This document shows positions 29,636 to 57,159 of a stretch of DNA of 64,000 bases, one piece after another (the first letter of the stretch is position 1; the number at the start of each line of letters is the position of its first letter). Origin of the DNA: Candidatus Uhrbacteria bacterium (GTDB lineage Bacteria; Patescibacteriota; Patescibacteriia; 2-12-FULL-60-25); NCBI GenBank assembly GCA_903829075.1, contig CAIKOH010000064.1, forward strand, positions 10,852-74,851, in the 5' to 3' direction. Both the position numbers and the translations under genes were made by a program. The notes beneath the pieces were generated by a model, which did no database searches, was not told the DNA's origin, and worked only from the letters and a program-made list of their open reading frames with translations.

Positions 29636-31078
29636 ATGTCGTCGGCTCTTTCAAGCGCCTCTGAACGCATCGCACTTCCTTCGTGGGAGGTGTTCGCGAT
29701 TTTTCTGTACGTAATCGGTGCTTGTATTGGCTTAGGAGTTGGCGTACCGCTCCTGATCGCTCTGCTGTTCGCCTGCGCGGGACTGTTCGTGTGGCGTTTT
29801 CCGTATGCGACGTTTTATGCAATGCTGGCCGCTTCTCCCTGCCTTGGCTGGATCATGAGCGTTCCCCTTTTATTTTGGACAAACGCGCCATCCGTGATTC
29901 AAATCAGCATCGGTGATGCACTCGTTTTATTGCTTGCAATCGTCTGGCTTGCTCGCGCACTGACCACTCGCTTCCTGCACGGAAGGCACGAACACTGGTC
30001 TGCACCGCTCATCGGCGCCTATGGCATTCTTGTACTCGGGCAGTTCCTCTCGATTTTTTCCAGCGCCTCACCAAACCCCTCCTCCATTGTAAAATTCGTG
30101 CTGCATCCCGTCGCCTTTGTCTACCTTGGATCAATTTTTCTCCCGGTCACCTTTATTCGTACCCGCCGCGATCTCACGCACGCGCTCGCCGTTCTCACCA
30201 GCGTCGGCGTGGCGTTCGCATTAGATGGATTTCGCTCGCTCTTCATTTTTGGCGTGATGGAAGCAGGGTTCCATCGCGCGCGACCACTTGGCTTGTTTGG
30301 GATCAATTTTTTAGGCGGCAACCACAATGCGCTTGGCGAAGCCCTGATCTTCATCGTGCCTCTGGCGATTGTTCTTGGGTTACTCGCTGACACGGCTCAA
30401 GCTCGACGAACCGCCTGGTCCGCAGCCCTGTTCATGACCCTGATTGCCCTGTTAACGTTTGCACGCTCTGCCTGGCTTGCACTTGGGGTTGAAGCAATCT
30501 TTCTTGGATGCACGGTCTGGCGCGGCTGGGTCAAGGAACAGGCACAAACGCTCATTCGTCTTGCTCTCGCCTGCACGCCACTTGCCGCAATCATGACCTG
30601 GTTTTCTCTTGGACCAGCGGTTCAAAGCTCAACGGATGCGCGCTTGACGCTGGCAGATATTGCATGGAATTTCTTTCGCGGAAACATCTGGCTCGGTGTT
30701 GGCAGCGGGACATTTACCGAACGTCTAGGGAACGTTTGGCTGTACGCTGTAGACTACGGAGATCCGATCGATGCGCACGGCCTGATACAAAAAATCGGCG
30801 CGGAAAGTGGTCTGGCTGGTCTAAGCACGTGTACATTTTTTGGATGGCGCCTCATTCGTCATCTGCATATCAGCTGGCACAAACTCACTCGTTCACCGCA
30901 AGCATTAAATATGTATGCCCTCCTGTGTGCCGCAGCTCTTGGCGCATTCACCTATCAACTCTTCAGCACCAGCATCTGGACCGCGCGCCTATGGCTGCCG
31001 ATTGGTCTCGCGCTCGCCGGAGGCCGCGTACTGCTTGGGAAACAGGCGGAAGCGGATCCCAAATTTTTTCCTTCATGA
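29636..31078 (+). CDS. O-antigen ligase/polymerase-like (Wzy_C type) polytopic membrane protein
   Basis: 480 aa with 10 or more hydrophobic helices. Contains LLTFARSAWLALG. Set among glycosyltransferase genes. Confidence 0.65.
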   Translation: MSSALSSASERIALPSWEVFAIFLYVIGACIGLGVGVPLLIALLFACAGLFVWRFPYATFYAMLAASPCLGWIMSVPLLFWTNAPSVIQISIGDALVLLLAIVWLARALTTRFLHGRHEHWSAPLIGAYGILVLGQFLSIFSSASPNPSSIVKFVLHPVAFVYLGSIFLPVTFIRTRRDLTHALAVLTSVGVAFALDGFRSLFIFGVMEAGFHRARPLGLFGINFLGGNHNALGEALIFIVPLAIVLGLLADTAQARRTAWSAALFMTLIALLTFARSAWLALGVEAIFLGCTVWRGWVKEQAQTLIRLALACTPLAAIMTWFSLGPAVQSSTDARLTLADIAWNFFRGNIWLGVGSGTFTERLGNVWLYAVDYGDPIDAHGLIQKIGAESGLAGLSTCTFFGWRLIRHLHISWHKLTRSPQALNMYALLCAAALGAFTYQLFSTSIWTARLWLPIGLALAGGRVLLGKQAEADPKFFPS

Positions 31079-32178
31079 CCACCATGCAAAAACCTGAAAT
31101 CATCCAGATTCTCTGGGGGCTTGATCGCGGTGGCGCAGAACGCATGGCCTTTCAACTTGCGTGTGGTTTACGCGAGCGAAATTGGCGCGTGCGCATGATC
31201 GCAGCCGGTGGTGGTGGCGACCTGCAGGAAGAAATCGAGCGCACCGGAATCCCTCTACACATCGGACCGGACACGCGCAATCGTTTCGCGACATTGAATT
31301 TTTTGCGACGCGAATTACCTCGCCGATCTTCCGCCATCTACCACACACATCTCGGTGCCGACATCTGGGCAGGTCTGATCGCGCGTACGCGTGGCATCCC
31401 CTGGGTCGCAACAGCGCATAGCCAAGAGGAACATCAACCACGACTCCGTACCTGGATGCATGAACGAATGCTACGCCAAGCAACTCACGTCGCCTGCGTC
31501 TCAAAAGAAGTACAAAACAGGATCTGGACACAAGCCCATGTCCCAATAAAACGCACCTCAGTCATCCCTTGTGGTATTGATGTCCAACTTTTTTCTACAC
31601 GCGCGCACATCCGCCATCTACACGACATTCCACGCTTCATCAGTGTCGGACGCCTTGTCTCAGGGAAACGTCATGCATTATTACTCGAAGCACTGGCAGC
31701 CATCCGCCGTCCATGGCAGCTCGAACTCGTTGGCGATGGCCCGGAACGATCCTCGCTCACTCGACTCGCTCAACGCCTCGGCATTCTTCCACGCATAAAA
31801 TTCACCGGCAGCGTTGAACCAAAACGCGTCGCACAACTTCTTCAAGAATCAGATGTATTCTGCTTTCCCTCTGAACAAGAGGGCCAAGGACTGTCCGTCC
31901 TCGAAGCTGCCACATCTGGCCTGCCGCTTATTCTGTCCAACCTCCCCGTATATCGCGAATGGTTTCAACCAAATGACGTCACCTTTGTCCACGAGACAAC
32001 TCCGCACGCCTGGACGTCTGCTCTCGAACAAATCTGGACAGCACCACCGACCTTCTTCGCACGCGCAGAACCGATCGCGCAACGCGTGCGCGATCAGGCC
32101 TCACTTGATACCATGGTGATGAACTACGAAGCGATCTACTCTCAACTCACGCCCCATGCGCATCCTTCACGTCAATAA
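31075..32178 (+). CDS. glycosyltransferase family 4
   Basis: The ATG at 31075 (ATGA overlap with the upstream stop) gives MTTMQKPEIIQILWGLDRGGAERM. Contains FPSEQEGQGLSVLEA. The upstream part of the track ORF is a shadow of the previous gene. Confidence 0.85.
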   Translation: MTTMQKPEIIQILWGLDRGGAERMAFQLACGLRERNWRVRMIAAGGGGDLQEEIERTGIPLHIGPDTRNRFATLNFLRRELPRRSSAIYHTHLGADIWAGLIARTRGIPWVATAHSQEEHQPRLRTWMHERMLRQATHVACVSKEVQNRIWTQAHVPIKRTSVIPCGIDVQLFSTRAHIRHLHDIPRFISVGRLVSGKRHALLLEALAAIRRPWQLELVGDGPERSSLTRLAQRLGILPRIKFTGSVEPKRVAQLLQESDVFCFPSEQEGQGLSVLEAATSGLPLILSNLPVYREWFQPNDVTFVHETTPHAWTSALEQIWTAPPTFFARAEPIAQRVRDQASLDTMVMNYEAIYSQLTPHAHPSRQ

Positions 32179-34105: not shown

Positions 34106-35386
34106 ATGTCTCTCACCTACGATCCTTCCGGCATGTACCTGCCGCATGGCGAATTATCCCCGACCCTTCTTTCACAACGCGCAGCACATCTCGAAGATGC
34201 TCGCCGCACCATCTTGCAATCAAAAAATACGCGACCTCTTGGTTGGCTGGATTTACCATCCGATCGTGTCATGCGTACGCGCATTAAACAGGTCGTAGCG
34301 GCAACAAAAAAATTCGATACGCTGCTCGTTCTTGGTATCGGCGGTTCAGATCTTGGCGCACGGGCGATTCTGCAAGCGCTTCCAAGCAAGCAGCGTGTGT
34401 TGTTTGCTGGTGACACGACCGACCCCGATGCGCTCGCGTCCATCCTATCGCAACTCAATTTGAAAAAGATCGTCGTCAACATTATTTCAAAATCCGGTGA
34501 CACGTTAGAGCCCATGAGTACGTTTTTTATTCTTCGTGATTTACTCAAAAAACAGGTTGGCAAAAATTTCATCCAACAGATCGTCGCAACCACAGACGCG
34601 AATCAGGGCACACTCCATGATCTCGCTCACACCGAGGGCTATCACACCCTAATCGTTCCAGATGATGTTGGCGGACGGTTCTCGGTGCTCTCAGACGTCG
34701 GATTATTTCCCGCAGCGTGGGCCGGCGTTCACACCGAACAACTCCTTGCGGGAGCAGCGGCCCAAGTCGAACTATTCCGCGCACAACCCGTTGAACAACA
34801 GGCTACGGCCACGTACGCACTCCTCCATGCAGAATCCTATCAACGCTATGGTCGTCACTTATTCGTATTCATGCCCTATGCGGCACGTCTGACAGAATGT
34901 GCACGCTGGTATCGTCAACTCATCGCCGAGAGTTTAGGTAAGACGACAGAAAAACATGCTATTGGTCCAACGCCCATCGCCGCGCTGGGGCCAACCGATC
35001 AACATTCACAACTCCAACTCTACATGGACGGTCCTTCAGACAAAATCATCACCTTCCTTGAGATCGGATCGTTCACTTCAAAGCTCCGTGTTCCCAAAAC
35101 ACTTCCTGAGGCAGGACGTCTTTCAAACATGAAAGACGTGCTCTTCGAAGACCTGATTCACGCCGAACGTCGCGCCACCGCCGATGCCTTGTCTCACGCG
35201 CATCGACCAAACGGCACGATCACCTTGCCAAAACTCGATACGTTTCATCTGGGCGAGCTGTTTCAATTTTTCATGTTGAGCACAGCGTATCTGGGTGAAT
35301 TGCTGCACGTAAATGCCTACGATCAACCCGGCGTCGAGGATAGCAAGCGCCGTTTTCGCGAATGGCTTGACACGCGCTCGTCCTAA
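34106..35386 (+). CDS. pgi: glucose-6-phosphate isomerase
   Basis: 426 aa. Contains the GIGGSDLGARA and DDVGGRFSVLSDVG signatures. Confidence 0.88.
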   Translation: MSLTYDPSGMYLPHGELSPTLLSQRAAHLEDARRTILQSKNTRPLGWLDLPSDRVMRTRIKQVVAATKKFDTLLVLGIGGSDLGARAILQALPSKQRVLFAGDTTDPDALASILSQLNLKKIVVNIISKSGDTLEPMSTFFILRDLLKKQVGKNFIQQIVATTDANQGTLHDLAHTEGYHTLIVPDDVGGRFSVLSDVGLFPAAWAGVHTEQLLAGAAAQVELFRAQPVEQQATATYALLHAESYQRYGRHLFVFMPYAARLTECARWYRQLIAESLGKTTEKHAIGPTPIAALGPTDQHSQLQLYMDGPSDKIITFLEIGSFTSKLRVPKTLPEAGRLSNMKDVLFEDLIHAERRATADALSHAHRPNGTITLPKLDTFHLGELFQFFMLSTAYLGELLHVNAYDQPGVEDSKRRFREWLDTRSS

Positions 35387-35436
35387 CTCTTGACACGCTC
35401 TATCAACCCTTCATGACTCTGCTATCATAAAGGCAT

Positions 35437-35784
35437 ATGAACAAAAAATCAGGTCATCTCGCCTCAGGTCTCGCCATTGGTACGATTCTTGGGATTGCCG
35501 CTGGATTCTTCATTCAATCAAAGGAAGGGAAAAAACTGAGCAAGGATGCACAGAAAAAAGCCTTGCGCTTACAAAAGGATGTCATGAAAAAACTGGAAGA
35601 CACGGGTGATTTAACCAAAGAGACGTATGCTGAGCTCGTCGACAAAATCCTCGCTTCATACGTCAAAGGCAAAGACATTGCCCAAAAAGAAATTCCAGAA
35701 GTACGCAAATTTCTCTTGAGCCGCTGGAAACAGGTCGAGGAACAATTGACGAACCTGACCCGAGAAGAGGATGACGAAGCGTAA
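35437..35784 (+). CDS. YtxH-like small membrane-anchored protein
   Basis: 115 aa. N-terminal anchor GLAIGTILGIAAGFF followed by a Lys/Glu-rich helix. Confidence 0.6.
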   Translation: MNKKSGHLASGLAIGTILGIAAGFFIQSKEGKKLSKDAQKKALRLQKDVMKKLEDTGDLTKETYAELVDKILASYVKGKDIAQKEIPEVRKFLLSRWKQVEEQLTNLTREEDDEA

Positions 35785-35800
35785 AAACTAGCAGCAACGA

Positions 35801-35829
35801 ACACTCGCGATTAGTTCGCGGGTGTTTTG
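35801..35829 (+). terminator. intrinsic terminator of the YtxH-like gene
   Basis: ACACTCGCGA-ttagt-TCGCGGGTGT followed by TTTT. Confidence 0.5.
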
Positions 35830-35842
35830 AAATAAAAGAATC

Positions 35843-35884
35843 TGAAAAACAAACCGACCCGCGTGCAGGAGTGCACACGGGTCG
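35843..35884 (-). terminator. GC-rich terminator of the high-GC island gene
   Basis: 13-bp stem with one mismatch (35855-35867 pairs with 35872-35884). On the minus strand it is followed by GTTTGTTTTTC. Confidence 0.5.
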
Positions 35885-38060
35885 TAAGAAGAAAGAAGTT
35901 TCTTGGATCAGGACGGGCGGCCAGACGCTGACTGCGAATGCCCATCCAGCGCGCTGCCGCTACCCAACCGCTGGAGCTCATCGAGGGCCGCCTGGGATTC
36001 GGGATCCGACACGACCGATGGACGCCTGTCGAAGGCGCGGCAACCGAGACGGATCAGGTCGGCCTGGCTCGTCAGCTCGAACTTGTAGGCCAGGTTCTGG
36101 CGCGGATCGACCAGGTAGGAAGGCCACTTCGCCCGCTCACCAGTCACCCTGAACATCCAGTCGTCGATCTCGTTCATCTCGCGCGCGAGGGGGACCATCT
36201 CGTTCCAGAAGATCTCGCTCCGCTGGGCGACGACTCGATCGGCGTTCATCGGGTTCTCGACGAACAGGTGATGCGAACGGTTGTCGGTATCGTCGATCAG
36301 TTGCGCCAGCGTCTGACGCAGCCCGATGAACCTCGCGCTTCGGCGCTCGATCTCGTCGAGCTCGGGCTGGGGGTTCTTCCAGCCACGCTCCGTCAACAGA
36401 GCCTCGGTAAGCTCGAACTTGATGGCCGCCGGACCGATCGGCTGAGGACCATTCTCGTCCGTCATCCAGCTCGGAACTTCGATCCCCTGCTGGATCAGAC
36501 GGCGCGTTGCGTTCGCCACCCCATTGATGGTCGGCGCAACCGTTTTCATCCAGCGGTCGGTGATCGTCTTCGAAATGACGCGGAACGAGTAGTGGTACTT
36601 CTCGTCCGGCGTGAGCGCGCGCGCCTGCTCGGTGATGAACGCCTGCAGATTGCGCCAGGCGTCGGTGTACGCTTCGCAGAAGTCGCCGTAGCGGTAGAGC
36701 TCGTCCTTCACGGACTGATCGTACCCCAACCTGGCGTGCTTCACGTATCCCATCTTGAGCAGAGCTTCCTTCGCCTTGTCGTTGTCGGCCGCGGCCTGCG
36801 CCGGAAGGTAGAAGTACCGCCCGCCCTCCTCGCTGCTCGTGATCTTGATGATGATGGCCATGAGGCCGATCACCATCATGACCAGGAAGCAGGCCTCCCT
36901 GATCTGCTGGACCTGCAGGTCGCCCGCGCTCATGCTCAAGAGCGTTCGCAGGAAGCTCAGGAAGCCGCGCGGCTCGCGCCACGTCCCGCCGTACTGGGTC
37001 GCCAGCTCGTCGCCGTCCATGCCGCTGATGCGGTCGATCATTGCCTGGCGTGCACTCTCGTTCGAGGCCTGTGCCGCGATCCGCTGACCGCGCATGGCAT
37101 CGACGTGGGTGTCCGTCGCGCGATCGAAGTTCTGGAGGTCGGTTGCGACCTGCGCGTTGTAGTCGCTCAAGGCACGCTGGGCATCCGCCGTCATCTGCCG
37201 CTCGCCGCCGAAAGCAGACGACGCGCCGACGCGTCCGGAGGATCCGAGTCCTGCGGCCTCGTTCGAAGCTCGTTGCGCACGACGTGCGACCTCTGCCGCG
37301 AGACTCGCTCGATGCGTCTCCTGAGACTGCATGAGCAGCTCGCGCGCAGTCTGTCGCTCACCGATGTATGTGGCGATGTCTCCCTGCGTTGCCATGGTGG
37401 CCGTGACTCCACGATCGTCGACGTGTGACAGCTCCAGAGTGCGCGCCCGCGAACGGATCGCGTCGAGCGACGCCGTCTCACGCTCGTGGATCTTCTGCTC
37501 GATCTCCGGACGGAACACGCGCAGCTCGACGGGAACCGCGTTGATGCCAGCCGTCAACACGAGCAGCGCCACGCGCAAACTGTAGTTGAAGACCCACGAA
37601 CCGATGTTGATGCGAAACGCCGTCTTCTTGAAACGGAATCCCGCGTCCGGCCGGATCGGACCCGTGTAGGACACGATGACCGCGCGATCGACCAACACGG
37701 TGATCGACGCGAACACGAGGCTCAGCATCACCGACTGCCAGCAGAGGCGGCCGAAGATGAGCTCCCAGGTCGATCCCCAGGCCCACAACTCGATCCCGAA
37801 GATGCAGGTCAGCAGCGCGGCATACGCACGCAGCTCCGCCTCCACCCGCGGGGACATGAGCGTGTTCCCGTAGACCTTGAGCATATAGACCTTCTCGACC
37901 AAGAAGTCGAGGATCCCCGCAAACCACGTACCAATCCTTCCCATGGTTCCACTCCTCGAGCGCGTATCGCGCTCTCGATTCCATTGCAGCCAGTTTTCAA
38001 GCCCGCGCCTATCGCAGAGCCTGAACGCCGTAGTGAACCATAAAAATGAAGTTTTGTCAA
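35855..38060. other. compositionally foreign high-GC island (about 65% versus 50% GC), single gene
   Basis: Hand count: 40 of 60 G+C at 36001-36060 versus 30 of 60 at 35461-35520. Long ORFs pile up on both strands only here. The island carries its own SD, palindrome and terminator. Confidence 0.7.
35908..37944 (-). CDS. 678-aa multi-TM / coiled-coil / TM protein with an unassigned ~290-aa C-terminal domain (DUF4407-like layout)
   Basis: GAGGAG SD lies 7 nt upstream of the ATG. TM segments: AALLTCIFGIELWAW, VMLSLVFASITVLV, VALLVLTAGINAV and ACFLVMMVIGLMAIIIKI. VPVELRVFRPEIEQKI is followed by Q/A/R-rich helices. Confidence 0.8.
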   Translation of the reverse strand: MGRIGTWFAGILDFLVEKVYMLKVYGNTLMSPRVEAELRAYAALLTCIFGIELWAWGSTWELIFGRLCWQSVMLSLVFASITVLVDRAVIVSYTGPIRPDAGFRFKKTAFRINIGSWVFNYSLRVALLVLTAGINAVPVELRVFRPEIEQKIHERETASLDAIRSRARTLELSHVDDRGVTATMATQGDIATYIGERQTARELLMQSQETHRASLAAEVARRAQRASNEAAGLGSSGRVGASSAFGGERQMTADAQRALSDYNAQVATDLQNFDRATDTHVDAMRGQRIAAQASNESARQAMIDRISGMDGDELATQYGGTWREPRGFLSFLRTLLSMSAGDLQVQQIREACFLVMMVIGLMAIIIKITSSEEGGRYFYLPAQAAADNDKAKEALLKMGYVKHARLGYDQSVKDELYRYGDFCEAYTDAWRNLQAFITEQARALTPDEKYHYSFRVISKTITDRWMKTVAPTINGVANATRRLIQQGIEVPSWMTDENGPQPIGPAAIKFELTEALLTERGWKNPQPELDEIERRSARFIGLRQTLAQLIDDTDNRSHHLFVENPMNADRVVAQRSEIFWNEMVPLAREMNEIDDWMFRVTGERAKWPSYLVDPRQNLAYKFELTSQADLIRLGCRAFDRRPSVVSDPESQAALDELQRLGSGSALDGHSQSASGRPS

Positions 38061-38158
38061 GAGCTTATGAACAACATTACAACATTCCTCAAGGACACTC
38101 ATGATCTCGATGCTTCCCCTGCACCCGCCCTGCATGCGCTTTCCATCCTTTCCAAAAA

Positions 38159-38187
38159 ATTGACACTCCCTACAAAACATGGTATTC
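38159..38187 (+). promoter_or_regulatory. sigma70-type promoter for rnj
   Basis: TTGACA (38159-38164), 17-nt spacer, extended -10 TGgTATTCT (-10 hexamer at 38182-38187). An A-tract lies upstream. Confidence 0.5.
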
Positions 38188-38403
38188 TGTTCCTTGTAAC
38201 GCTTTTCGCTCGCTGCCGATCTTGATCGACATCCTCGAAAGTCGTGACATTGCCTTAGGTTCCTCTCCTAGGCTGCAGAAAACGTCTGCTGTTCCTCGCA
38301 CCATTCCACCTACGCGTAGAAGTTCGTCACTTCTTTCAATTTTCGTTGATTTATTTTTATTTTCTCGGCGTCTCAATCTCTATTGAGCGCCACATTCTCT
38401 GTT

Positions 38404-40449
38404 ATGGATTCTCCAAACAAACCAGCAACTCCGCGACCAACCGGTCCCAAAAGTTCCTTTCCTCCTCGCCGTGGACGCTTTAACTCGTCGCGCGGACGCG
38501 GTGGATATCAAGGACAAAAAAATACCGCCAACATGCACACCCCCTCAGCTTCGAAGACGGGGTATATTTCGCATGCGCCTGCCGGCACTACGTCCGGTGC
38601 GCCTACACAAAGCTTGAAACAGGGCTTTGCAAAAGAAGAGCGCGGCACCAGCGGCCGTCAAGAAATTCAACGACGCAAACGTCCGATGGGCGGAGCCTTT
38701 GAAGCTGCGCCACGCATGCACACCTTTAAAAACAAACCATTCCACAAAACCGGAACCGACGTTGACGTGCTCACCCCAGGTGACACGCGCTTGCACGTCA
38801 CGGTACTCGGTGGCAACGAAGAAATTGGTCGTAACATGACCATGCTTGAATTCGGCAACGACATTTTGCTGATCGACATGGGTCTGCAGTTTCCTGACGA
38901 AGACATGCCGGGCGTCGACTACATCATCCCGAACGTGTCCTGCTTGAAGGGAAAAGAAAAAAACATTCGCGGCGTCATCATCACCCACGCGCACTACGAT
39001 CACATCGGCGGTATCCCGCATTTGATGCCCGTGCTCGGCAATCCACCGATCTTCACGACGGATTTAACCTGCGCCATCATCAAAAAGCGCCAGGAAGATC
39101 ATCGTGATAAACCTGCGCTGAATATTTTTTCGGTCACCACGAACGATGTGTTACAACTTGGAAAATTCAAAGTCGAATTTTTCGGTGTTGCACATTCCGT
39201 GCCAACTTCGATGGGTGTTATTGTGACGACCCCGGCCGGCATCATCGTCCACACCGGCGATTTCAAGCTCGATGCTTCAACGGGCGCACAGTCGCTTCAA
39301 GAAACCGACAAGATCAAAGCGCTCGGCGATCGCAATGTGCTCGCGCTCATGATTGACTCGACCAACGCAACTAAATCAGGTCGCCAGCTCGCTGAAGGTG
39401 AAATTCAGCACAACATCGATGAGATCATCAAAAATGCCAAGGGCAAAATTATCATCGGTACGTTCGCGTCCATGATCTCACGTATTCAGCAGATCATTCA
39501 TGCCTGTGAACGCATGGGCCGCAAAGTTGCGATCGAAGGGTTCTCGATGCGCTCGAACGTCATGATCGCGCAGGAACTTGGGTACATGAACATCAGCAAA
39601 GGCACGCTGATCGATACGAAAGACATCCATAAATATCCCAGCGAAAAAGTCGCGATCGTCTGTACCGGTGCACAAGGCGAACAACGCGCTGTGTTGATGC
39701 GCATCGCCAACCGCGAACATCCGATCGTCACGATTGATCCAGGAGACACCGTCGTATTTTCCTCGTCTGTCATTCCTGGCAACGAACGTTCCGTACAGCG
39801 GGTCAAAGATACACTGTATCGCGAAGGTGCCAACGTCATCCATTACCAAATGATGGATGTTCACGCCGGTGGACACGCGCAACAGGAAGATTTGGTCGAG
39901 ATGCATCAGATGGTCAAACCAAAATACCTGATTCCGATCGAAGGTCACTACTCCTTCTTGTGTGAACACGCCAAGGCCGCGATTCGTGCCGGCTTCAATC
40001 CACAAAACATCCTGATCGCCGACAATGGACAGATCATGGAATTTGATCAACAAGGCAACGGCATGTTGACCAACAAAAAAGTGGTCACTGACTTCGTCTT
40101 CGTCGACGGTCTCGGCGTTGGTAACACCAACCAGGTCGTGCTTCGCGATCGTCAGCAACTCTCTAGCGACGGCGTCCTAATCGTGGTCGCTGTCATCGAT
40201 GGACAGACCGGCGAACTGCAAGCAACACCAGACCTGATCTCGCGCGGCTTCATCTACATGAAGGAACACCAAGATCTGATCCAGCAAACACGTCAAAAAG
40301 CCGCCAGCGTCTTCAAGGAACATTCACAGCCGACGATTCCACCAAATGCAACGTATCTAAAAGACAAATTACGCGATGAACTAGGAGAGTTTCTCTTCGT
40401 GAAGACGGAGCAGCGACCGATGATTATTCCAGTGATTATCGAGGTGTAA
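38404..40449 (+). CDS. rnj: ribonuclease J with an N-terminal Arg/Gly/Pro-rich extension of about 130 aa
   Basis: Metallo-beta-lactamase motif VIITHAHYDHIGG. The length matches RNase J with its beta-CASP region (inferred from overall resemblance, no motif checked). ATG at 38404; an alternative TTG lies at 38383. Confidence 0.9.
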   Translation: MDSPNKPATPRPTGPKSSFPPRRGRFNSSRGRGGYQGQKNTANMHTPSASKTGYISHAPAGTTSGAPTQSLKQGFAKEERGTSGRQEIQRRKRPMGGAFEAAPRMHTFKNKPFHKTGTDVDVLTPGDTRLHVTVLGGNEEIGRNMTMLEFGNDILLIDMGLQFPDEDMPGVDYIIPNVSCLKGKEKNIRGVIITHAHYDHIGGIPHLMPVLGNPPIFTTDLTCAIIKKRQEDHRDKPALNIFSVTTNDVLQLGKFKVEFFGVAHSVPTSMGVIVTTPAGIIVHTGDFKLDASTGAQSLQETDKIKALGDRNVLALMIDSTNATKSGRQLAEGEIQHNIDEIIKNAKGKIIIGTFASMISRIQQIIHACERMGRKVAIEGFSMRSNVMIAQELGYMNISKGTLIDTKDIHKYPSEKVAIVCTGAQGEQRAVLMRIANREHPIVTIDPGDTVVFSSSVIPGNERSVQRVKDTLYREGANVIHYQMMDVHAGGHAQQEDLVEMHQMVKPKYLIPIEGHYSFLCEHAKAAIRAGFNPQNILIADNGQIMEFDQQGNGMLTNKKVVTDFVFVDGLGVGNTNQVVLRDRQQLSSDGVLIVVAVIDGQTGELQATPDLISRGFIYMKEHQDLIQQTRQKAASVFKEHSQPTIPPNATYLKDKLRDELGEFLFVKTEQRPMIIPVIIEV

Positions 40450-41589: not shown

Positions 41590-41961
41590 ATGAACACACA
41601 CGCCCTCACTAATCGATCGGCCAGCCGTTCAGATTGCTTCGTCGAACTCGCAATGACGGTCGGCTCCGACACAATCCCCTCAAACTCCCGCGCGACTATC
41701 GAGCACCGCAGGATGGCCTGTGAGATAGCGATGAACGCAAGCGCGATGCTTGAGCCACGTCTTCATCTAAAAGATCTGATCGGGTGTGACGTGGCGAGTT
41801 GCGCTTGCCCGCGTATCGAGACAGAGCCATCCGAGGAGCGGAGATGCTCGCGCAACAGTTTTTCTTCGTCTATTCTTTTTGACGCAACAAAAAGAATAGA
41901 CCGGAGTGCAGAGGCAGAGCCCCGCTCCGATGGAACGACCTATTCCTCTTCAAAAACTTGA
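41590..41961 (+). CDS. doubtful 123-aa ORF in the trpS-infC spacer
   Basis: Codon third positions are G/C-biased in the first two thirds. However, the product is S/R/C-rich and unrecognisable, and its 3' third is occupied by long hairpins. Confidence 0.25.
   Translation: MNTHALTNRSASRSDCFVELAMTVGSDTIPSNSRATIEHRRMACEIAMNASAMLEPRLHLKDLIGCDVASCACPRIETEPSEERRCSRNSFSSSILFDATKRIDRSAEAEPRSDGTTYSSSKT
41827..41933 (+). other. 107-nt compound hairpin upstream of the infC promoter
   Basis: Outer 12-bp stem with a 3-nt bulge (41827-41841 pairs with 41922-41933). Inner perfect 13-bp stem GTCTATTCTTTTT/AAAAAGAATAGAC (41868-41880 pairs with 41889-41901). Confidence 0.45.
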
Positions 41962-41986
41962 CAAATATCCTAGCTTTACGTATCAT
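41958..41986 (+). promoter_or_regulatory. sigma70-type promoter for infC-rpmI-rplT
   Basis: TTGACA (41958-41963), 17-nt spacer, TATCAT (41981-41986). An A-tract lies upstream. Confidence 0.5.
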
Positions 41987-42034
41987 CACGCACGAAGCTG
42001 ACATGTCTTTCGACGTTCTGTTTCTCCATAAAAA

Positions 42035-42595
42035 ATGCGTATTCACCATCGCCGCCGAGGCGGCTACCAAAAAAAAGAACTGATGCCGCTGTATCGCGCC
42101 AATGAGTCGATCCTGTCTCCGGAAGTCCGGGTGATCGATGAAGAGGGCAAGCCACTTGGGGTCTTAGCCACCAAAGAGGCCATCGCCATCGCGCGCGAAC
42201 GCAGCTACGATCTGGTGGAAGTCTCGCCCAAGGCGGTTCCTCCGGTCTGCAAGCTGATCGACTTCGGACAGTTCAAATATCAAAAGGAAAAAGAACTACG
42301 CATTCAGAAAGCGCGCGCCAAAAAAGTTGAGGTCAAGGGCATACGCTTGTCGATCCGCATGGGAGAACACGACACCGAAATTCGTCGCAGTCAAGCCGTG
42401 GAATTCTTGAACGATGGACACAAGCTCAAACTCGAGATCATCCTCCGCGGACGTGAGAAGGAGCACGGTGATCTGGCCAACGAACGCATCAATTCATTTA
42501 TCAAACTGTTAGAAGCGAACCACGCCTTACAGCTTGAACAACCCATCAGCCGCAACCGTGGAAACGTCTCGGCGATCGTGGGAAGAAAATCCTAA
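42035..42595 (+). CDS. infC: translation initiation factor IF-3
   Basis: Contains ANESILSPEVRVIDEEGKPLGV and KKVEVKGIRLSIRMGEHD. The start is uncertain: ATG at 42035 or 42083. Confidence 0.88.
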   Translation: MRIHHRRRGGYQKKELMPLYRANESILSPEVRVIDEEGKPLGVLATKEAIAIARERSYDLVEVSPKAVPPVCKLIDFGQFKYQKEKELRIQKARAKKVEVKGIRLSIRMGEHDTEIRRSQAVEFLNDGHKLKLEIILRGREKEHGDLANERINSFIKLLEANHALQLEQPISRNRGNVSAIVGRKS

Positions 42596-42790: not shown

Positions 42791-43129
42791 ATGCCAAGAG
42801 TCAAACGCGGCACCCACCGCATCAAACGCCGCAAGAATATATTGGCCCGAACCAAGGGCATGATGTGGGGTCGCAAGAACCGCATCACTCTCGCCAAGGT
42901 TGCCGCCACCAAATCCGGTGCCAACTCGTACCGCGATCGTCGCCTCAAGAAGCGTGACGCACGTGCATTGCAACAGATGCGCATCAACGCCGCCGCTCGT
43001 TTGCTTGAAACGACCTACTCGAAGTTCATCCACAGTCTCAAGCAACGCAACATCGAGCTTGATCGCAAAGTTCTCGCGCAGATCGCCATGAATCATCCAA
43101 ACGTCTTCGCGCAGATCGCCAAAGTGTAA
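42791..43129 (+). CDS. rplT: 50S ribosomal protein L20
   Basis: 112 aa. Contains MPRVKRGTHRIKRRKNIL and YRDRRLKKRDAR. Confidence 0.92.
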   Translation: MPRVKRGTHRIKRRKNILARTKGMMWGRKNRITLAKVAATKSGANSYRDRRLKKRDARALQQMRINAAARLLETTYSKFIHSLKQRNIELDRKVLAQIAMNHPNVFAQIAKV

Positions 43130-55181: not shown

Positions 55182-56072
55182 ATGAACATCATCGAAATCA
55201 TCGACAGCGTCTGGAGAATTTCGAGCAACGCCAAAGGACCGACCGTCGCCATCGTCGGTGGAACACATGGGAATGAACGAACAGGCATCGAGCTGGTCAA
55301 GCGCCTGCTCGCGGACTGCCTATCTGGCCGATTCATTCTCACCCGCGGAGAACTTCTCCTTGCACTCGGCAATCCACGTGCCATCGAAAAACATCAACGT
55401 GGATCTGAAGCGGGCGCAGATCTGAATCGCTGCTTCACGGCCAACAGCCTGGGATCAAAGGGAGCACGCTACGAGGAACAACGCGCACGGGAACTCGCAG
55501 AGATTTTTGCGAGAGTACACCTGGGAATCGATATCCACGCAACCAACACCCCGTCTGAACCGTTCCTGGTGAGTCAACGCTTTCCTGATTCTCAGATCGA
55601 GCAACTGTGCCGATGCTTCAAAGCTGGAATCGTGCTAACAGATCCTGATTGGGTTTTCGCTGGCGAACCCACCACCCTCGATGAGCTGTTCGCGAAGCAA
55701 GGCGGAGTCGGTCTTTGCTACGAAACAGGACACGCGTCCGATACGTCACGAATCGATGAGGTTGAGCAGGAAATCCGTCAGATGCTGGTCATGGCGGGCT
55801 TGCTGAAAAACGAGGCGCAGATACATGTGGCCCAAACCCGCCAGAGCATCTATCAACTGTCACAAGCGATCACTCTGACAGGTGATGGATTCATCTACGC
55901 GGAAGGTGTAGGCGCTCGGAACTTCCAAGTCGTGAAATCCGGCGAGCTGATTGGTCACCATGGAACGCGCGCCCTCGTCGCCCAACACGCTGGATTCATC
56001 GTTTTTCCGAAGCTGCCTTCACTCTGGCAAACAGGCAAGCCCGTGGGCTACCTCGCTCGACGCATCTCGTAG
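55182..56072 (+). CDS. succinylglutamate desuccinylase/aspartoacylase (AstE/AspA, M14-like) family protein
   Basis: Contains the VAIVGGTHGNERTGIE and ADLNRCF motifs. Confidence 0.75.
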   Translation: MNIIEIIDSVWRISSNAKGPTVAIVGGTHGNERTGIELVKRLLADCLSGRFILTRGELLLALGNPRAIEKHQRGSEAGADLNRCFTANSLGSKGARYEEQRARELAEIFARVHLGIDIHATNTPSEPFLVSQRFPDSQIEQLCRCFKAGIVLTDPDWVFAGEPTTLDELFAKQGGVGLCYETGHASDTSRIDEVEQEIRQMLVMAGLLKNEAQIHVAQTRQSIYQLSQAITLTGDGFIYAEGVGARNFQVVKSGELIGHHGTRALVAQHAGFIVFPKLPSLWQTGKPVGYLARRIS

Positions 56073-56090
56073 AAATACCGCGTAATTCTT

Positions 56091-56129
56091 CAACACGAAG
56101 CGGAACTCCCTTCGTGTTGCTTTATTTTT
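56091..56129 (+). terminator. intrinsic terminator
   Basis: CAACACGAAG-cggaactccc-TTCGTGTTG followed by CTTTATTTTT. Confidence 0.55.
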
Positions 56130-56163
56130 GAGTCTCGGGTAGGATGCCAACGGTAGATTCATT

Positions 56164-56240
56164 CGGGGCGTAGCTCAGTTGGCTAGAGCGCCTGCTTTGG
56201 GAGCAGGAGGCCGCAGGTTCAAGTCCTGTCACCCCGACCA
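56164..56240 (+). tRNA. tRNA-Pro (anticodon UGG), CCA encoded
   Basis: Cloverleaf folded by hand. Acceptor CGGGGCG pairs with CACCCCG with one mismatch. Anticodon arm CCTGC-TTTGGGA-GCAGG. T arm GCAGG-TTCAAGT-CCTGT. Confidence 0.9.
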
Positions 56241-56243
56241 CGC

Positions 56244-56268
56244 AAAAACACCGCACAACGGTGTTTTT
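56244..56268 (+). terminator. terminator after tRNA-Pro
   Basis: AAAAACACCG-cacaa-CGGTGTTTTT. Confidence 0.55.
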
Positions 56269-56562
56269 GCTTTGTAAAATAAGGAGTTGTTCGCCATACC
56301 ACCCTACCCATACACAACAAACACCCCGACCGGAGAGTCGCGTTGCTAACCATGACTAGCACAACACTCCGCGGCCGCACCCGGTACGATCACCCAACTG
56401 ACGACGACACAGCACCTTCACCGCGCGCCTCGCCAACGTCGGCACTCGACGTAGGCAGGGATGCGGTTTTTTCATTTTTTAGTACACGTATTTCAAACAT
56501 ATCACTCCGACCTCCCCTCGTTGGAGTCACGGTCAAAAAGTTGATAAAGCTCCTCACCTCAT

Positions 56563-56997
56563 TTAAAAATTCTTGCCAATTTCAATGAGTAGATCGGAGA
56601 ATTCTTTTAATTTTGTTGTTTGATTTTTTGGAATAGCACCATCGCAAAAATCTTCCATGTACTCAAGCCCTTCTGTTAGTTTGTTTTTTCCTCCTGACGC
56701 AAGGACAACATAGCTGACGCGGGCATCATGCTCGTTTGATTCTTTTTTTATCAATCCTATTTTTTCCATTGGAAGAAGCAGGCGCGTGACCCCGGAAGCA
56801 GTTAAACCCACTTTTCCTGCTAAATCTATACGACGCATCTTCTGATCGTCCGCTTGGCTAAGATGGTAAAGAATAATAAATTCAGTAAATCCAATGCCGT
56901 TTAAGTGCGCATCTAAATGACGGCTTAACTCGGTTTGAAGCTTCGCAATATCTATACAGAATCTGATAGACTGATTCAAATCTTTCATAGTAGGCAT
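56563..56997 (-). CDS. MarR-family transcriptional regulator (low-GC gene)
   Basis: 144 aa. Winged-HTH segment MRRIDLAGKVGLTASGVTRLLLPMEKIGLIKKESNEHDARVSYVVLASGG. 18 of 60 G+C at 56581-56640. Confidence 0.8.
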   Translation of the reverse strand: MPTMKDLNQSIRFCIDIAKLQTELSRHLDAHLNGIGFTEFIILYHLSQADDQKMRRIDLAGKVGLTASGVTRLLLPMEKIGLIKKESNEHDARVSYVVLASGGKNKLTEGLEYMEDFCDGAIPKNQTTKLKEFSDLLIEIGKNF

Positions 56998-57120
56998 TTT
57001 TATTTGATTAATAGTTGATTACTCAAGTATATATTAAGTAAATACTGGAGTCAAGTATCGATTTATACATAAACTGGTGTGCATGTCACTTTTTTCTGTA
57101 GATCCGGTATGATGTACCCG

Positions 57121-57141
57121 TTGAGTGACCTAAGCACTCAA
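57121..57141. promoter_or_regulatory. candidate operator (7-bp inverted repeat) downstream of a TATGAT -10
   Basis: TTGAGTG-acctaag-CACTCAA. The -10-like TATGAT is at 57108-57113. It lies between the divergent MarR gene and the peptide gene. Confidence 0.35.
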
Positions 57142-57159
57142 AATATTTTTTATTTTTGT

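What the first reader, a model, noticed from the sequence alone, without database searches (positions are those of the whole stretch)
35855..38060. 2.1-kb high-GC single-gene island encoding a 678-aa TM/coiled-coil/TM protein of unknown function
Seen in the sequence:
- Composition jumps from about 50% to about 65% GC. I counted 40 of 60 G+C at 36001-36060, against 30 of 60 at 35461-35520.
- This is why the ORF track shows long overlapping ORFs on both strands here and almost nowhere else.
- Only the minus-strand frame 35908-37944 looks like a protein.

That frame is a complete expression unit:
- GAGGAG SD at 37952-37957.
- A 7-bp palindrome, GAGCGCG-tat-CGCGCTC, abutting the SD (37958-37974).
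- A possible TTGACA -35 at 38055-38060.
- Its own GC-rich terminator at 35855-35884.

Protein layout:
- Three N-terminal TM helices.
- VPVELRVFRPEIEQKI, followed by about 230 aa of Q/A/R-rich coiled coil.
- A fourth TM helix, ACFLVMMVIGLMAIIIKI.
- A soluble C-terminal domain of about 290 aa that I cannot assign.

Inference:
- This is a horizontally acquired cassette dropped between housekeeping genes (ytxH-like and rnj).
- The TM/coiled-coil/TM layout is what I remember for Pfam DUF4407, which has no known function.
- Stand-alone membrane proteins in foreign islands are plausible phage-exclusion, abortive-infection or mobile-element functions.
- I saw no integrase and no flanking direct repeats.
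Basis: partly seen in the sequence, partly recalled or inferred. Interest (0 to 1): 0.75.

Follow-up and report, generated by a model that had tools for sequence, protein, structure and literature searches.

The report
GC-rich lone membrane-protein gene, Uhrbacteria
A real 2.2-kb GC-rich single-gene unit in a Candidatus Uhrbacteria (CPR) genome encodes a four-pass membrane protein with a long coiled-coil stalk, belonging to an uncharacterised, fast-evolving DUF4407 subfamily whose genes are richer in G+C than their host genome wherever I could look, so it is probably an imported accessory gene, though a gene-specific GC drive is not excluded; its function is unknown.

Summary
Window 35850-38045 is 62-67% GC against 46-57% elsewhere. 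The excess lies in third codon positions (GC3 0.84 vs 0.535±0.063; z 4.9). The 678-aa ORF (35908-37944, minus) passes Pfam DUF4407 (56 bits, cut-off 31). It has a promoter, Shine-Dalgarno site, hairpin and terminator. An independent assembly spans both junctions.

New findings:
- About 85-100 distant homologues share a C-terminal ~115-aa helical repeat (1-3 copies) with no Pfam, PDB or viral-fold match.
- Located members sit alone among housekeeping genes; three loci or locus groups are shown to be Patescibacteria.
- They diverge far faster than their neighbours (40-59% vs 87-96% identity).
- All 12 loci with usable neighbours show higher GC3 than their neighbours.
- The window copy's codon usage resembles that of a GC-rich Uhrbacterium (r 0.86), not its host (0.40).

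Verdict: an accessory, fast-evolving envelope protein, most likely acquired from a GC-richer relative. A gene-specific GC drive is not excluded. The defence idea is untested: no PADLOC hit, no defence island, no phage or plasmid copy. Its only support is one remote DUF4407 relative in a CHAT-SAVED operon. Function remains unknown.

The parts
38032..38060 (-). Promoter: -35 TTGACA (38060-38055), 17-nt spacer AAACTTCATTTTTATGG, extended -10 TGG-TTCACT (-10 at 38037-38032). It lies in the AT-rich DNA (GC 0.40) just outside the GC-rich tract.
   Evidence: Sequence. The same TTGACAAAA-N5-(A/T)TTT...-10 layout lies upstream of the homologues in L083, L090, L092, L093, L094 and L095. It is also a general promoter pattern in 1.26 Mb of the fetched loci, most of them Patescibacteria: 71 of 516 TTGACA are TTGACAAAA. 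The simple scan missed it because the -10 matches only 3 of 6 positions.
37945..38025 (-). Inferred 5' untranslated leader of about 80 nt (GC 0.59). It contains the palindrome GAGCGCG-TAT-CGCGCTC (37958-37974) abutting the Shine-Dalgarno GAGGAG (37952-37957).
   Evidence: Read. The fold gives two hairpins, -32.8 kcal/mol, z -1.8, which is marginal. The transcription start is inferred from the promoter, not measured.
35908..37944 (-). Coding sequence of the 678-aa DUF4407-family membrane protein (GC 0.64, GC3 0.84).
   Evidence: An identical protein is on record as P0001 (NCBI, ENA, Logan).
37516..37851 (-). Residues 32-143: three N-terminal membrane helices, with conserved D86 (TM2), R124 and P138/E140 (TM3), and the TAVPVEL motif.
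   Evidence: Family-mean hydropathy peaks at 38-56, 67-85 and 126-144. Helices in the model. Invariant residues.
37015..37515 (-). Residues 144-310: antiparallel coiled-coil hairpin (helices 145-230 and 243-308). The first helix would be about 13 nm long by standard helix rise (my arithmetic). The Gly-rich tip loop (residues 229-243, window 37216-37260) carries invariant E229, G232 and G240, with G242 in at least 90% of sequences.
   Evidence: AlphaFold2 model, pLDDT 85-93 in this stretch. Invariant and nearly invariant columns.
36841..37014 (-). Residues 311-368: conserved neck (YGG.W...RGFL) and the fourth membrane helix (348-366).
   Evidence: This is the best-conserved region among orthologues.
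36370..36732 (-). Residues about 405-525: C-terminal repeat 1, a helical hairpin plus a W/P-rich loop (PxW...W...GW.NP).
   Evidence: hhalign of repeat 1 against repeat 2: probability 99.2%, E 5e-20. Model of the domain: pLDDT 88.9, pTM 0.73.
36025..36369 (-). Residues 526-640: C-terminal repeat 2 (helical hairpin plus KWP..DPR loop). Residues 641-678 (35911-36024) form a disordered Ser/Ala/Gly-rich tail.
   Evidence: A DNA-level echo of the duplication is direct repeat D3, 36071-36091 and 36407-36427, spaced 336 nt, i.e. 112 codons.
35845..35884 (-). Intrinsic terminator of the gene: 13-bp stem, 4-nt loop, GTTTGTTTTT tail.
   Evidence: Fold of -29.3 kcal/mol over the downstream 80 nt.
35806..35830 (+). 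Separate short hairpin followed by a T-run, downstream of the ytxH-like gene. It marks the end of the host-composition DNA on the left side.
   Evidence: Read. A terminator-like site at 35806-35820 was reported on the minus strand. The 35785-35854 spacer has GC 0.39.

Best explanation
What it is (shown). An intact, self-contained transcription unit: a promoter of the type common in Patescibacteria, a leader of about 80 nt, a strong ribosome-binding site, the ORF and an intrinsic terminator. It encodes a 678-aa membrane protein that passes Pfam DUF4407. The protein belongs to a previously undescribed subfamily that adds one to three copies of a ~115-aa helical-hairpin repeat after the fourth membrane helix. 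The located members are in Candidatus Uhrbacteria or Patescibacteria, or in similar housekeeping contexts.

Architecture. Three membrane helices lead into a roughly 13-nm antiparallel coiled-coil hairpin with an invariant glycine-rich tip. The chain returns to a fourth membrane helix, and then come two repeats. The charge distribution suggests the N-terminus and the repeats are cytoplasmic and the stalk is outside the cell. This topology is inferred with low confidence.

What kind of gene it is (shown). An accessory, sparsely sampled, stand-alone gene (small clusters of one to seven sequences) that diverges several times faster than its neighbours.

Origin (inferred, about 0.6). This copy was acquired laterally from a GC-richer Uhrbacterium and sits in the variable zone upstream of rnj. 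That accounts for its donor-like codon usage and its Patescibacteria-type promoter. A family-wide tendency to stay GC3-rich adds to the signal.

Function (inferred, about 0.3). An envelope-spanning sensor or effector in cell-surface interaction or biological conflict. The conserved stalk tip would contact a constant partner, and the fast-evolving repeats a changing one. It is not a housekeeping protein.
For: Identity.
- Pfam hit above the curated cut-off.
- An exhaustive HMMER search of 1.84 billion representatives found 122 hits, of which about 50 match over residues ~10-630 at 23-33% identity.
- Invariant residues are retained in the window protein.
- The C-terminal repeat is supported by hhalign at 99.2%, and copy number varies from 1 to 3 across the family.
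- The structure models are confident: pLDDT 83.5 and 88.9.

Host and context.
- RNase J relatives are Uhrbacteria or Patescibacteria MAGs.
- Homologue P0005 lies on the same Patescibacteria contig as the rnj relative L027.
- Syntenic set A is GC-rich Uhrbacteria: its EF-G is 91% identical to that of RIFOXYB12_FULL_58_10.
- Homologues stand alone among murA/rpsL/fusA, pyk/ftsZ, dnaA/dnaN, the atp operon and ftsH.

Fast evolution. Neighbours are 87-96% identical while the protein is 40-59% identical.

Foreign signature here.
- GC3 z = 4.9.
- The excess is not explained by amino-acid content: expected 0.51, observed 0.84.
- It is not explained by the host's expression-linked bias: highly expressed host genes use GAA at 0.81, this gene uses GAG at 0.90.
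- RSCU correlates 0.86 with ordinary genes of a GC-rich Uhrbacterium and 0.40 with its own host.
- No family member lies near rnj in 80 related species, and the stretch upstream of rnj varies between relatives.

Real junctions. An independent Logan contig spans both.
Against: - No close relative or donor has been sampled. The best homologues are only about 31-33% identical, and the window protein is equidistant from all lineages.
- No empty-site genome was found, so the insertion is inferred and not seen.
- In all 12 loci with usable neighbours the homologue is GC3-richer than its neighbours. This includes two lineages where the gene tree follows synteny, i.e. vertical inheritance. High GC therefore need not mean recent arrival.
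- No integrase, repeats or tRNA are present.
- The functional part rests on architecture and evolutionary rate only. There is no operon partner, no match in PADLOC, PHROGs, NCBIfam, the PDB or BFVD and no literature on function.
- The topology is ambiguous. TM1 is weakly hydrophobic in this protein, and the charges around TM4 do not discriminate.
Confidence: 0.55

Rival explanations
1. A long-resident gene whose GC excess is maintained in place. Genes of this family are kept GC3-rich by a process specific to the locus, for example GC-biased gene conversion at a recombination hot spot under diversifying selection, recurrent replacement of alleles, or selection on the mRNA. On this view the 'island' does not mark a recent transfer.
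For: - The homologue has higher GC3 than its neighbours in all 12 loci with usable neighbours, representing 8 independent lineages. The mean excess is +0.16 (Wilcoxon p 0.0005), and the homologue's GC3 tracks host GC3 with r 0.68.
- The excess persists in set A (+0.03 to +0.16) and set B (+0.19 and +0.23), where the gene keeps its position and its tree follows synteny despite only 38-59% protein identity. Synonymous sites there must be saturated.
- The excess survives correction for amino-acid content in all 8 loci tested.
- The GC-rich tract coincides with the transcribed unit, and the promoter is AT-rich and of the type common in Patescibacteria.
Against: - The excess here (+0.33) is larger than in the clearly vertical cases.
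- Codon usage matches ordinary genes of a GC-rich Uhrbacterium (r 0.86), which a simple import explains.
- The gene is absent from the rnj region of 80 relatives, and the related genome that has a copy keeps it at another locus.
- One short contig, L095, shows no excess: 0.79 against neighbours at 0.94 and 0.66.
- No population or recombination data are available, and the sample is small.
Confidence: 0.3
2. One reading: a stand-alone phage-exclusion or abortive-infection membrane effector, which when triggered damages the membrane. This concerns function and does not exclude the explanations of origin.
For: - Fast evolution, sparse sampling in small clusters and atypical composition are typical of conflict genes.
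- A remote classic DUF4407 (P0123, 496 aa) is translationally coupled within an operon holding TPR-CHAT, CHAT-SAVED, CHAT, a 391-aa protein with a weak GTPase match and a 1443-aa protein. The SAVED and CHAT parts match PADLOC effector models.
Against: - No PADLOC match for this protein or for P0123, and none in PHROGs.
- Every located member of the subfamily lies singly among housekeeping genes. None sits next to a known defence gene, sensor or protease.
- No copy in phage, plasmid or IMG/VR collections.
- The CHAT-SAVED example is one locus seen in two samples, and its protein shares only the N-terminal module.
Confidence: 0.2
3. An ordinary structural or housekeeping envelope or division protein of Uhrbacteria that merely looks odd in composition.
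For: The neighbours are always core genes: ftsZ/ftsA, murA, dnaA, the atp operon and rnj. The position is stable within lineages. The gene has a strong promoter, ribosome-binding site and terminator.
Against: - The exhaustive search found only 122 clusters, each with one to seven members, among 1.84 billion representatives.
- The gene is absent from the 80 rnj loci.
- It evolves several times faster than its neighbours.
- It has no NCBIfam family.
- Its codon usage runs opposite to that of the host's highly expressed genes.
Confidence: 0.1
4. An artefact: a chimeric assembly or a contaminating high-GC fragment stitched between ytxH and rnj.
For: The compositional boundaries are sharp, the segment holds a single gene, and the source is a metagenome-assembled genome.
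Against: - An independent assembler (Logan, run ERR4197940) gives the same 3.7 kb across both junctions.
- The junctions fall in intergenic DNA, with a promoter of the Patescibacteria type on one side and separate terminators on the other.
- Homologues lie in similar contexts in other Patescibacteria.
Confidence: 0.03

Closest known systems
Pfam DUF4407 (PF14362), an uncharacterised bacterial membrane/coiled-coil family
   Same: Residues 42-372 match profile positions 18-286 of 297 at 56.1 bits, against a cut-off of 31.3. The layout is the same: membrane helices, a long helical hairpin, then another membrane helix.
   Different: Classic members are about 490 aa and lack the C-terminal repeats. 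This subfamily adds 1-3 copies of a ~115-aa unit that has no Pfam model. No function is known for any DUF4407 protein. The three papers that mention the family only list it in tables.
Membrane effectors of CHAT/SAVED-type conflict operons (CBASS or type III CRISPR-like signalling)
   Same: A remote DUF4407 protein (P0123) is embedded in such an operon. The family shows the fast evolution and sparse sampling expected of conflict genes.
   Different: The window gene and all located subfamily members stand alone, with no sensor, protease or cyclase partner. There is no PADLOC match. Only the N-terminal module is shared with P0123.
Classical genomic island or laterally transferred cassette
   Same: Sharp GC and tetranucleotide discontinuity, foreign codon usage, own promoter and terminator, and a location in a zone that varies between relatives.
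   Different: A single gene with no integrase, flanking repeats or tRNA. The same compositional offset recurs in homologues that are inherited vertically.
Membrane proteins with long coiled-coil stalks: ZorA/MotA/ExbB-type stators, EsaA/YueB/PIP-type stalk proteins, and the signalling hairpin of chemoreceptors. These are analogies from my own knowledge.
   Same: A membrane-helix bundle with conserved charged and proline residues. A long antiparallel helical hairpin with an invariant tip. In the EsaA/YueB type the stalk is anchored in the membrane on both sides.
   Different: No sequence or fold match was found. Foldseek against the PDB gave a best E of 0.7 with TM-score at most 0.18 for the full model, and E 1.2 for the C-terminal domain. 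The profile search of PDB sequences returned only coiled-coil noise. No partner genes such as ZorB or type VII secretion genes are present.

Membership tests
Pfam DUF4407 (PF14362) | Whole-protein score above the curated gathering threshold of the family profile | tested here: met
   56.1 bits against 31.3, E 4.8e-15, profile positions 18-286 of 297. The record also carries PF14362 as a precomputed annotation.
Pfam DUF4407 (PF14362) | Layout of membrane helices, long helical hairpin and a further membrane helix | tested here: met
   Four family-wide hydropathy peaks. Helices 145-230 and 243-308 in the model.
DUF4407 subfamily with C-terminal repeats (defined here) | One or more copies of the ~115-aa helical hairpin plus PxWP...DPR...GW.DP unit after the fourth membrane helix | tested here: met
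   Two copies in the window protein: hhalign probability 99.2%, E 5e-20.
Known anti-phage defence systems (PADLOC-DB v2) | Match to a model of a known or candidate defence protein | tested here: not met
   No family at E up to 1. The remote relative P0123 also has none.
Known anti-phage defence systems | Location in a defence island or next to defence genes | tested here: not met
   Window neighbours are Wzy_C, GT4 x2, a methyltransferase, PGI, a YtxH-like protein, RNase J, TrpRS, IF3 and L20. All located subfamily members (about a dozen distinct loci) lie in housekeeping contexts.
Phage or plasmid gene | Homologues in phage, plasmid or viral-contig collections | tested here: not met
   tblastn found no match in 50,697 phage records or 72,556 plasmids. 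The IMG/VR pattern scan found no relative. PHROGs best E was 0.2. BFVD fold search gave only generic coiled coils, E at least 0.02.
Classical genomic island | Atypical composition and codon usage | tested here: met
   GC3 z 4.9 and tetranucleotide z 11. RSCU correlates 0.40 with the host and 0.86 with a GC-rich Uhrbacterium.
Classical genomic island | Integrase or transposase, flanking direct repeats, adjacency to a tRNA | tested here: not met
   No such Pfam domains in the flanking ORFs. There are only chance-level repeats. The nearest tRNAs lie at 56.2 and 59.8 kb.
Classical genomic island | Empty site in a close relative | tested here: inconclusive
   None of the 80 related species carries the gene near rnj, but none has ytxH or pgi next to rnj either. 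The closest RNase J is only 78% identical.
Known RNA families in the leader (Rfam 15) | Match to a riboswitch or leader model | tested here: not met
   Only chance-level hits, E at least 0.44, all below gathering scores.

The most novel reading that the evidence does not exclude
The gene family marks a hypervariable determinant, so far located only in Patescibacteria or similar housekeeping contexts. It would be an envelope-spanning stalk protein with a constant tip and fast-changing repeats, used in the interaction with host cells or phages. Its locus would be kept GC-rich in every genome by a gene-specific process, such as GC-biased gene conversion from constant recombination or serial replacement of alleles. 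It would then be a natural, recognisable recombination hot spot in CPR genomes, and a case where a 'foreign-looking' island is a standing feature and not an import.
Probability: 0.2. Interest if true: 0.7.

Novelty: new variant of a known kind. Interest (0 to 1): 0.45.

Why it matters
- DUF4407 has no known function. This work defines a subfamily with a new repeat domain and gives confident models, invariant residues (R124, E140, the E229/G232/G240 tip, W522/P525) and a testable topology.
- For genome interpretation, it is a caution. Composition-based island calling would label every located member of this family as foreign, yet in at least two lineages the gene is inherited vertically and still stays GC3-rich.
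- If that offset proves general, it offers a handle on recombination or biased gene conversion in uncultured CPR bacteria, where such processes are almost unstudied.
- If the protein proves to be a surface or conflict factor, it would be a candidate for the poorly understood host-contact or phage-contact machinery of these episymbionts.

Tried and rejected
**Searches that returned nothing useful**
- The word-indexed protein search found only the query itself. With the family alignment it found only one extra protein. The exhaustive HMMER search was needed.
A 9-sequence alignment worked.
- Classic DUF4407 P0113 against plasmids and phages: no match.
- Literature: three papers only list DUF4407 in tables.

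**Structure and sequence comparisons**
- Foldseek of the full model and of the C-terminal domain against the PDB, and of the full model against BFVD, gave nothing below E 0.02 and TM-scores of at most 0.25.
- The profile against PDB sequences gave only coiled-coil noise: MakE and NheL1 at E 0.017, CnrR at 0.025. I rejected these as homology.

**Explanations tested and rejected**
- The antisense 496-aa ORF as a real gene: it is expected by chance (P 0.19).
- The depletion of stop codons in the sense +2 frame as a sign of dual coding. Here there are 5 stops against 14.9±3.3 expected. The same bias occurs in ordinary genes of these genomes.
- High expression as the cause of the GC excess. Host genes expected to be highly expressed (the EF-Tu-like ORF, L20, IF3) reach only GC3 0.61-0.70 and prefer GAA, CCA and GGT. 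This gene uses GAG and CCG.
- Amino-acid content as the cause.

**Features looked for and not found**
- A conserved leader RNA or a cassette-specific flank. Only the generic promoter is shared, and Rfam found nothing.
- Flanking repeats.
- Paralogues in the window.
- An empty site in relatives. Gene order upstream of rnj is not conserved.


Full report

Yes. GC in 300-bp windows rises from 0.43-0.54 to 0.61-0.67 between about 35850 and 37950, then falls back to 0.47-0.54. At 1-kb resolution the two kilobases 36001-38000 are 0.63. No other kilobase of the 64-kb window exceeds 0.575. Strand-symmetric tetranucleotide distance singles out the same 2 kb (robust z 11).

The excess is almost wholly synonymous. 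GC1/GC2/GC3 of ORF 35908-37944 (minus strand) are 0.61/0.46/0.84. The 59 other ORFs of at least 100 aa have GC3 0.535±0.063 with a maximum of 0.70, which puts this gene at z = 4.9.

The long ORFs on other frames are a by-product of this codon usage. A 498-codon open antisense stretch is within expectation for shuffled codons (P = 0.19).

- Shine-Dalgarno GAGGAG at 37952-37957 and palindrome GAGCGCG-TAT-CGCGCTC at 37958-37974.
- A strong intrinsic terminator at 35884-35855, with a 13-bp stem and a T-rich tail.
- TTGACA at 38060-38055.

A 3702-bp contig assembled independently by the Logan project from run ERR4197940 is identical to window 35279-38980. It therefore spans both junctions. This argues against a chimeric join.

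**2. The transcription unit**

The simple promoter scan did not report a minus-strand promoter. Comparison across loci does. TTGACA at 38060-38055 is followed by a 17-nt spacer (AAACTTCATTTTTATGG) and TGG-TTCACT.

The same layout, TTGACAAAA-N5-(A/T)TTT...-10, lies 87-199 nt upstream of the homologous genes in six other loci. It is also a general promoter form in the 1.26 Mb of loci fetched, most of them Patescibacteria. There, 71 of 516 TTGACA are TTGACAAAA, and many are followed by TGnTATAAT-like boxes.

So the gene is driven by a promoter of the type common in Patescibacteria. That promoter sits in AT-rich DNA (GC 0.40) just outside the GC-rich tract. The tract corresponds to the transcribed part: leader 0.59, ORF 0.64, terminator segment 0.55, against 0.39-0.45 for the adjacent spacers.

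The leader folds into two hairpins, but not much better than shuffled sequence (z -1.8). It matches no Rfam family.

**3. The protein**

Pfam assigns residues 42-372 to DUF4407 (PF14362) at 56.1 bits against a cut-off of 31.3. PADLOC, PHROGs and NCBIfam give nothing.

An AlphaFold2 model built on 25 family sequences is confident (mean pLDDT 83.5) and entirely helical. Family-averaged hydropathy shows four membrane helices, at residues 38-56, 67-85, 126-144 and 348-366. In the window protein alone the first is only weakly hydrophobic.

The third helix runs straight into an 86-residue helix (145-230). This turns at a glycine-rich loop (residues 231-242) and returns as a 66-residue helix (243-308). 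The result is an antiparallel hairpin roughly 13 nm long.

Conserved positions:
- Invariant across 25 sequences: R124, I148, E229, G232, G240, W522 and P525.
- Also invariant in a closer set of nine: D86, P138, E140 and F144.

The membrane part therefore carries conserved charged and proline residues, and the tip of the stalk is the most constant soluble element.

The loop between the first two membrane helices is nearly free of Lys and Arg. The N-terminal stretch and the loop between the second and third helices are basic. This suggests the N-terminus is inside, the stalk outside and the C-terminal domain inside. The charges around the fourth helix do not discriminate, so I treat this topology as tentative.

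**4. The unassigned C-terminal 290 aa**

This region is a tandem duplication. Residues about 405-525 and 526-640 align profile-to-profile with probability 99.2% (E 5e-20). Each unit is a helical hairpin followed by a loop rich in Trp, Pro and Gly, with family consensus PxWP..L..G.DPR....PW.....L....GW.DP.

A separate model of the domain is confident (pLDDT 88.9, pTM 0.73). Neither this model nor the full model has a meaningful match in the PDB or among viral protein models. The best E-values are 1.2, 0.7 and 0.02, with TM-scores of at most 0.25. Profile searches of PDB sequences give only coiled-coil noise.

Across the family the unit occurs once, twice or three times, and classic DUF4407 proteins of about 490 aa lack it. 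Residues 641-678 are disordered.

**5. Relatives and where they live**

The word-indexed search found only the protein itself. An exhaustive HMMER scan of 1.84 billion cluster representatives found 122 hits (75 below 1e-10). About 50 align over nearly the full length at 23-33% identity. The twenty clusters I looked up are small: one to three sequences in all but one, which has seven.

The host of the window is a Candidatus Uhrbacteria-like member of the Patescibacteria. Its RNase J finds Uhrbacteria and Patescibacteria MAGs at 53-78% identity, with rnj-trpS synteny kept.

Family members could be placed in about a dozen distinct loci, plus duplicate contigs of the same loci:
- Homologue P0005 lies on contig JALHOH010000001.1 of a Patescibacteria MAG. 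That MAG's RNase J is 75% identical to the window's, but the copy is about 70-80 kb from rnj, between ftsH/S1 and glycosyltransferases.
- Four loci (L084, L085, L086, L091; set A) share the order murA-X-M50 peptidase-rpsL-rpsG-fusA. The EF-G of L091 is 91% identical to that of Candidatus Uhrbacteria RIFOXYB12_FULL_58_10, so these are GC-rich Uhrbacteria.
- Two loci (L092, L093; set B) share X-pyk-htrA-nrdR-ftsZ-ftsA.
- Others lie beside dnaA-dnaN (L083), after the ATP synthase operon (L100), or next to giant ORFs of more than 2200 aa (L089, L094).

None lies in a defence island, prophage or plasmid-like context. There is no hit in 50,697 phage records, 72,556 plasmids or IMG/VR.

No family member lies within 6 kb of rnj in 80 related species, tested with the family profile. 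In those relatives the stretch between a conserved solute-binding-protein gene and rnj holds varying unannotated ORFs. The window gene therefore sits in a zone that is variable in this clade. PGI and ytxH are not next to rnj in any relative. No empty site was available for comparison.

**6. Two unexpected properties of the family**

First, it evolves very fast. In set A the neighbours MurA, EF-G, S12 and S7 are 87-96% identical between genomes, while the protein is 40-59% identical. In set B the neighbours are 54-68% identical and the protein 38%. The gene similarity matrix follows these synteny groups, so the gene is inherited vertically there. The helical hairpins of the C-terminal repeats change fastest. 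The neck with the fourth membrane helix changes slowest, and the stalk tip is also well conserved in most comparisons.

Second, the gene is GC3-richer than its neighbours in all 12 loci with usable neighbours:

| Locus | GC3 of the gene | GC3 of neighbours |
|---|---|---|
| window | 0.84 | 0.535 |
| L094 | 0.72 | 0.32 |
| L093 | 0.68 | 0.45 |
| L092 | 0.60 | 0.41 |
| L091 | 0.93 | 0.77 |
| L090 | 0.78 | 0.65 |
| L089 | 0.51 | 0.38 |
| L083 | 0.60 | 0.51 |
| L084 | 0.76 | 0.67 |
| L085 | 0.76 | 0.69 |
| L100 | 0.60 | 0.52 |
| L086 | 0.73 | 0.70 |

The mean excess is +0.16 (Wilcoxon p 0.0005), and the gene's GC3 tracks host GC3 with r 0.68. These loci represent about eight independent lineages.

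One short contig (L095) shows no excess: 0.79 against neighbours at 0.94 and 0.66.

The excess is not caused by amino-acid content. For the window, 0.51 is expected from host usage per amino acid and 0.84 is observed; all eight loci tested show an excess.

It is not the host's expression-linked bias either. The EF-Tu-like ORF, L20 and IF3 reach GC3 of only 0.61-0.70 and prefer GAA (0.81), CCA and GGT. This gene uses GAG (0.90) and CCG (0.60).

**7. Origin of the window copy**

Its relative synonymous codon usage correlates 0.86 with ordinary genes of the GC-rich Uhrbacterium L091, 0.74-0.83 with most of the other family genes (0.46-0.67 for three), and only 0.40 with its own host.

Several facts favour lateral acquisition from a GC-richer Uhrbacterium:
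- the size of the offset;
- the location in a variable zone;
- the absence of the gene at this site in relatives;
- the different location of the copy in the related genome.

A donor within the same group would also explain the Patescibacteria-type promoter.

Against a simple 'recent import' stands the persistent excess in the vertically inherited copies of sets A and B. Their synonymous sites must have turned over many times. Some gene-specific force appears to keep these genes GC-rich. Candidates are biased gene conversion linked to frequent recombination, serial replacement of alleles, or selection on the transcript.

I estimate about 0.6 for import of this copy and about 0.3 for a standing, locally maintained excess. 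I cannot separate the two without closer genomes or population data.

**8. Function**

Nothing is known for DUF4407. The three papers that mention it only list it in tables.

The subfamily has no conserved partner gene. The evidence does not fit a housekeeping role: the clusters are few and small, the protein diverges fast, and its codon usage runs opposite to that of the host's highly expressed genes.

The one functional hint comes from a remote, classic DUF4407 (P0123). It is translationally coupled inside an operon with TPR-CHAT, CHAT-SAVED, a second CHAT protease, a protein with a weak GTPase match and a 1443-aa protein. The SAVED and CHAT parts match PADLOC effector models. This shows that the N-terminal module can serve in a conflict system. 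It is one locus and a distant relative.

My working model has low confidence. The four-helix membrane base, with its conserved Arg, Asp, Glu and Pro, and the rigid stalk with its invariant tip form a constant core. The core spans the envelope and contacts a constant partner. The rapidly changing repeats engage a variable partner. The protein would then act as a sensor or effector in surface interaction or conflict.

Resemblances to stalked membrane proteins are analogies from my own knowledge and were not confirmed by any search. These include ZorA/MotA-type stators, EsaA/YueB-type stalks and the chemoreceptor hairpin.

**9. Verdict**

- The DUF4407 assignment is confirmed.
- The 'foreign cassette' reading is likely but needs the qualifications above.
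- The defence reading is unsupported by direct tests.
- The thing is a new architectural variant of a known but uncharacterised family.
- It has an unexplained and potentially informative compositional behaviour.
- Interest is moderate.

Noticed in passing
window 38032-38060 (minus), 41958-41990 (plus), 38160-38188 (plus); many sites in L002-L100: The fetched loci, most of them Patescibacteria, share a recognisable strong promoter form: TTGACAAAA, about 5 nt, an A/T run, then TGnTAnAAT. In 1.26 Mb, 71 of 516 TTGACA are followed by AAA, far above chance. This could be used to annotate transcription starts in these genomes.
   Followed up: partly
window 35908-37944 (sense +2 frame); also control genes in the window, L090 and L091: The +2 reading frame holds far fewer stop codons than codon shuffling predicts: 5 against 14.9±3.3, with a 406-codon open stretch. 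Several ordinary genes show the same depletion (ftsH z -2.7, a T2SSE ATPase z -3.3, murA z -2.1). It is therefore a general codon-pair bias (avoidance of NNT before RAN codons), not dual coding.
   Followed up: yes
L097 1-17491 and L098 (Logan runs SRR12687290 and SRR12687294): An operon of TPR-CHAT, a 124-aa ORF, CHAT-SAVED, CHAT, a 391-aa protein with a weak Double-GTPase match, a classic DUF4407 (its start overlaps the preceding stop), a 1443-aa protein without domains, and two more ORFs. Alba-like and faint Csx3-like genes lie nearby. It looks like an undescribed multi-gene conflict system with a DUF4407 membrane component.
   Followed up: partly
L002-L027, locus coordinates about 1500-6000 (upstream of rnj): In relatives, the stretch between a conserved SBP_bac_5 solute-binding-protein gene and rnj holds different small ORFs without Pfam domains in each genome. 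One example is a 586-aa minus-strand ORF in L027. This looks like a variable zone of the clade.
   Followed up: partly
L089 2550-9512 and L094 3192-9947: Giant ORFs of 2320 and 2251 aa lie next to the family gene in two unrelated loci. The L094 ORF has no Pfam domain on record; the L089 ORF was not scanned. In L094 the giant gene has GC3 0.32 against 0.72 for the family gene, the largest contrast seen.
   Followed up: no
window 56001-58500: An AT-richer stretch (GC 0.45-0.47, tetranucleotide z 3-4) lies just after tRNA-Pro (56164-56240). It encodes a 144-aa ORF that looks like a MarR-type regulator by eye (56563-56997, not scanned). It also encodes a small predicted secreted peptide with a striking KKHVMKK repeat (57079-57423) and a 442-aa multi-pass membrane protein (57630-58958). 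This may be a second, AT-rich island.
   Followed up: no
window 42791-43129 (L20), 42035-42595 (IF3), 10672-11904 (EF-Tu-like): After the DUF4407 gene, the highest GC3 values in the window include genes expected to be highly expressed (0.70, 0.63, 0.61). These genes prefer NNC, GAA, CCA and GGT. The host therefore has a mild expression-linked codon bias, distinct from the codon usage of the island.
   Followed up: yes
window 35437-35784: The 'ytxH-like' neighbour scores 32.8 bits against a Pfam cut-off of 37.5 for YtxH. It falls below the curated threshold, although a precomputed annotation lists the family. The name should be treated as tentative.
   Followed up: partly
window 29636-31078 and 30508-32178: Two long same-strand ORFs overlap by about 570 nt: a Wzy_C-like O-antigen ligase and a GT4 glycosyltransferase. 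The glycosyltransferase domains begin at residue 208 of the second ORF, so its true start is probably much further downstream than the mechanical ORF call.
   Followed up: no
codons 181-240 of the family gene in the window, L090, L092, L093 and L094: GC3 dips at the same place in several homologues, the first arm of the coiled coil approaching the tip (for example 0.65 in the window against 0.82-0.97 elsewhere). This points to a position-specific codon pattern that is conserved across hosts.
   Followed up: no
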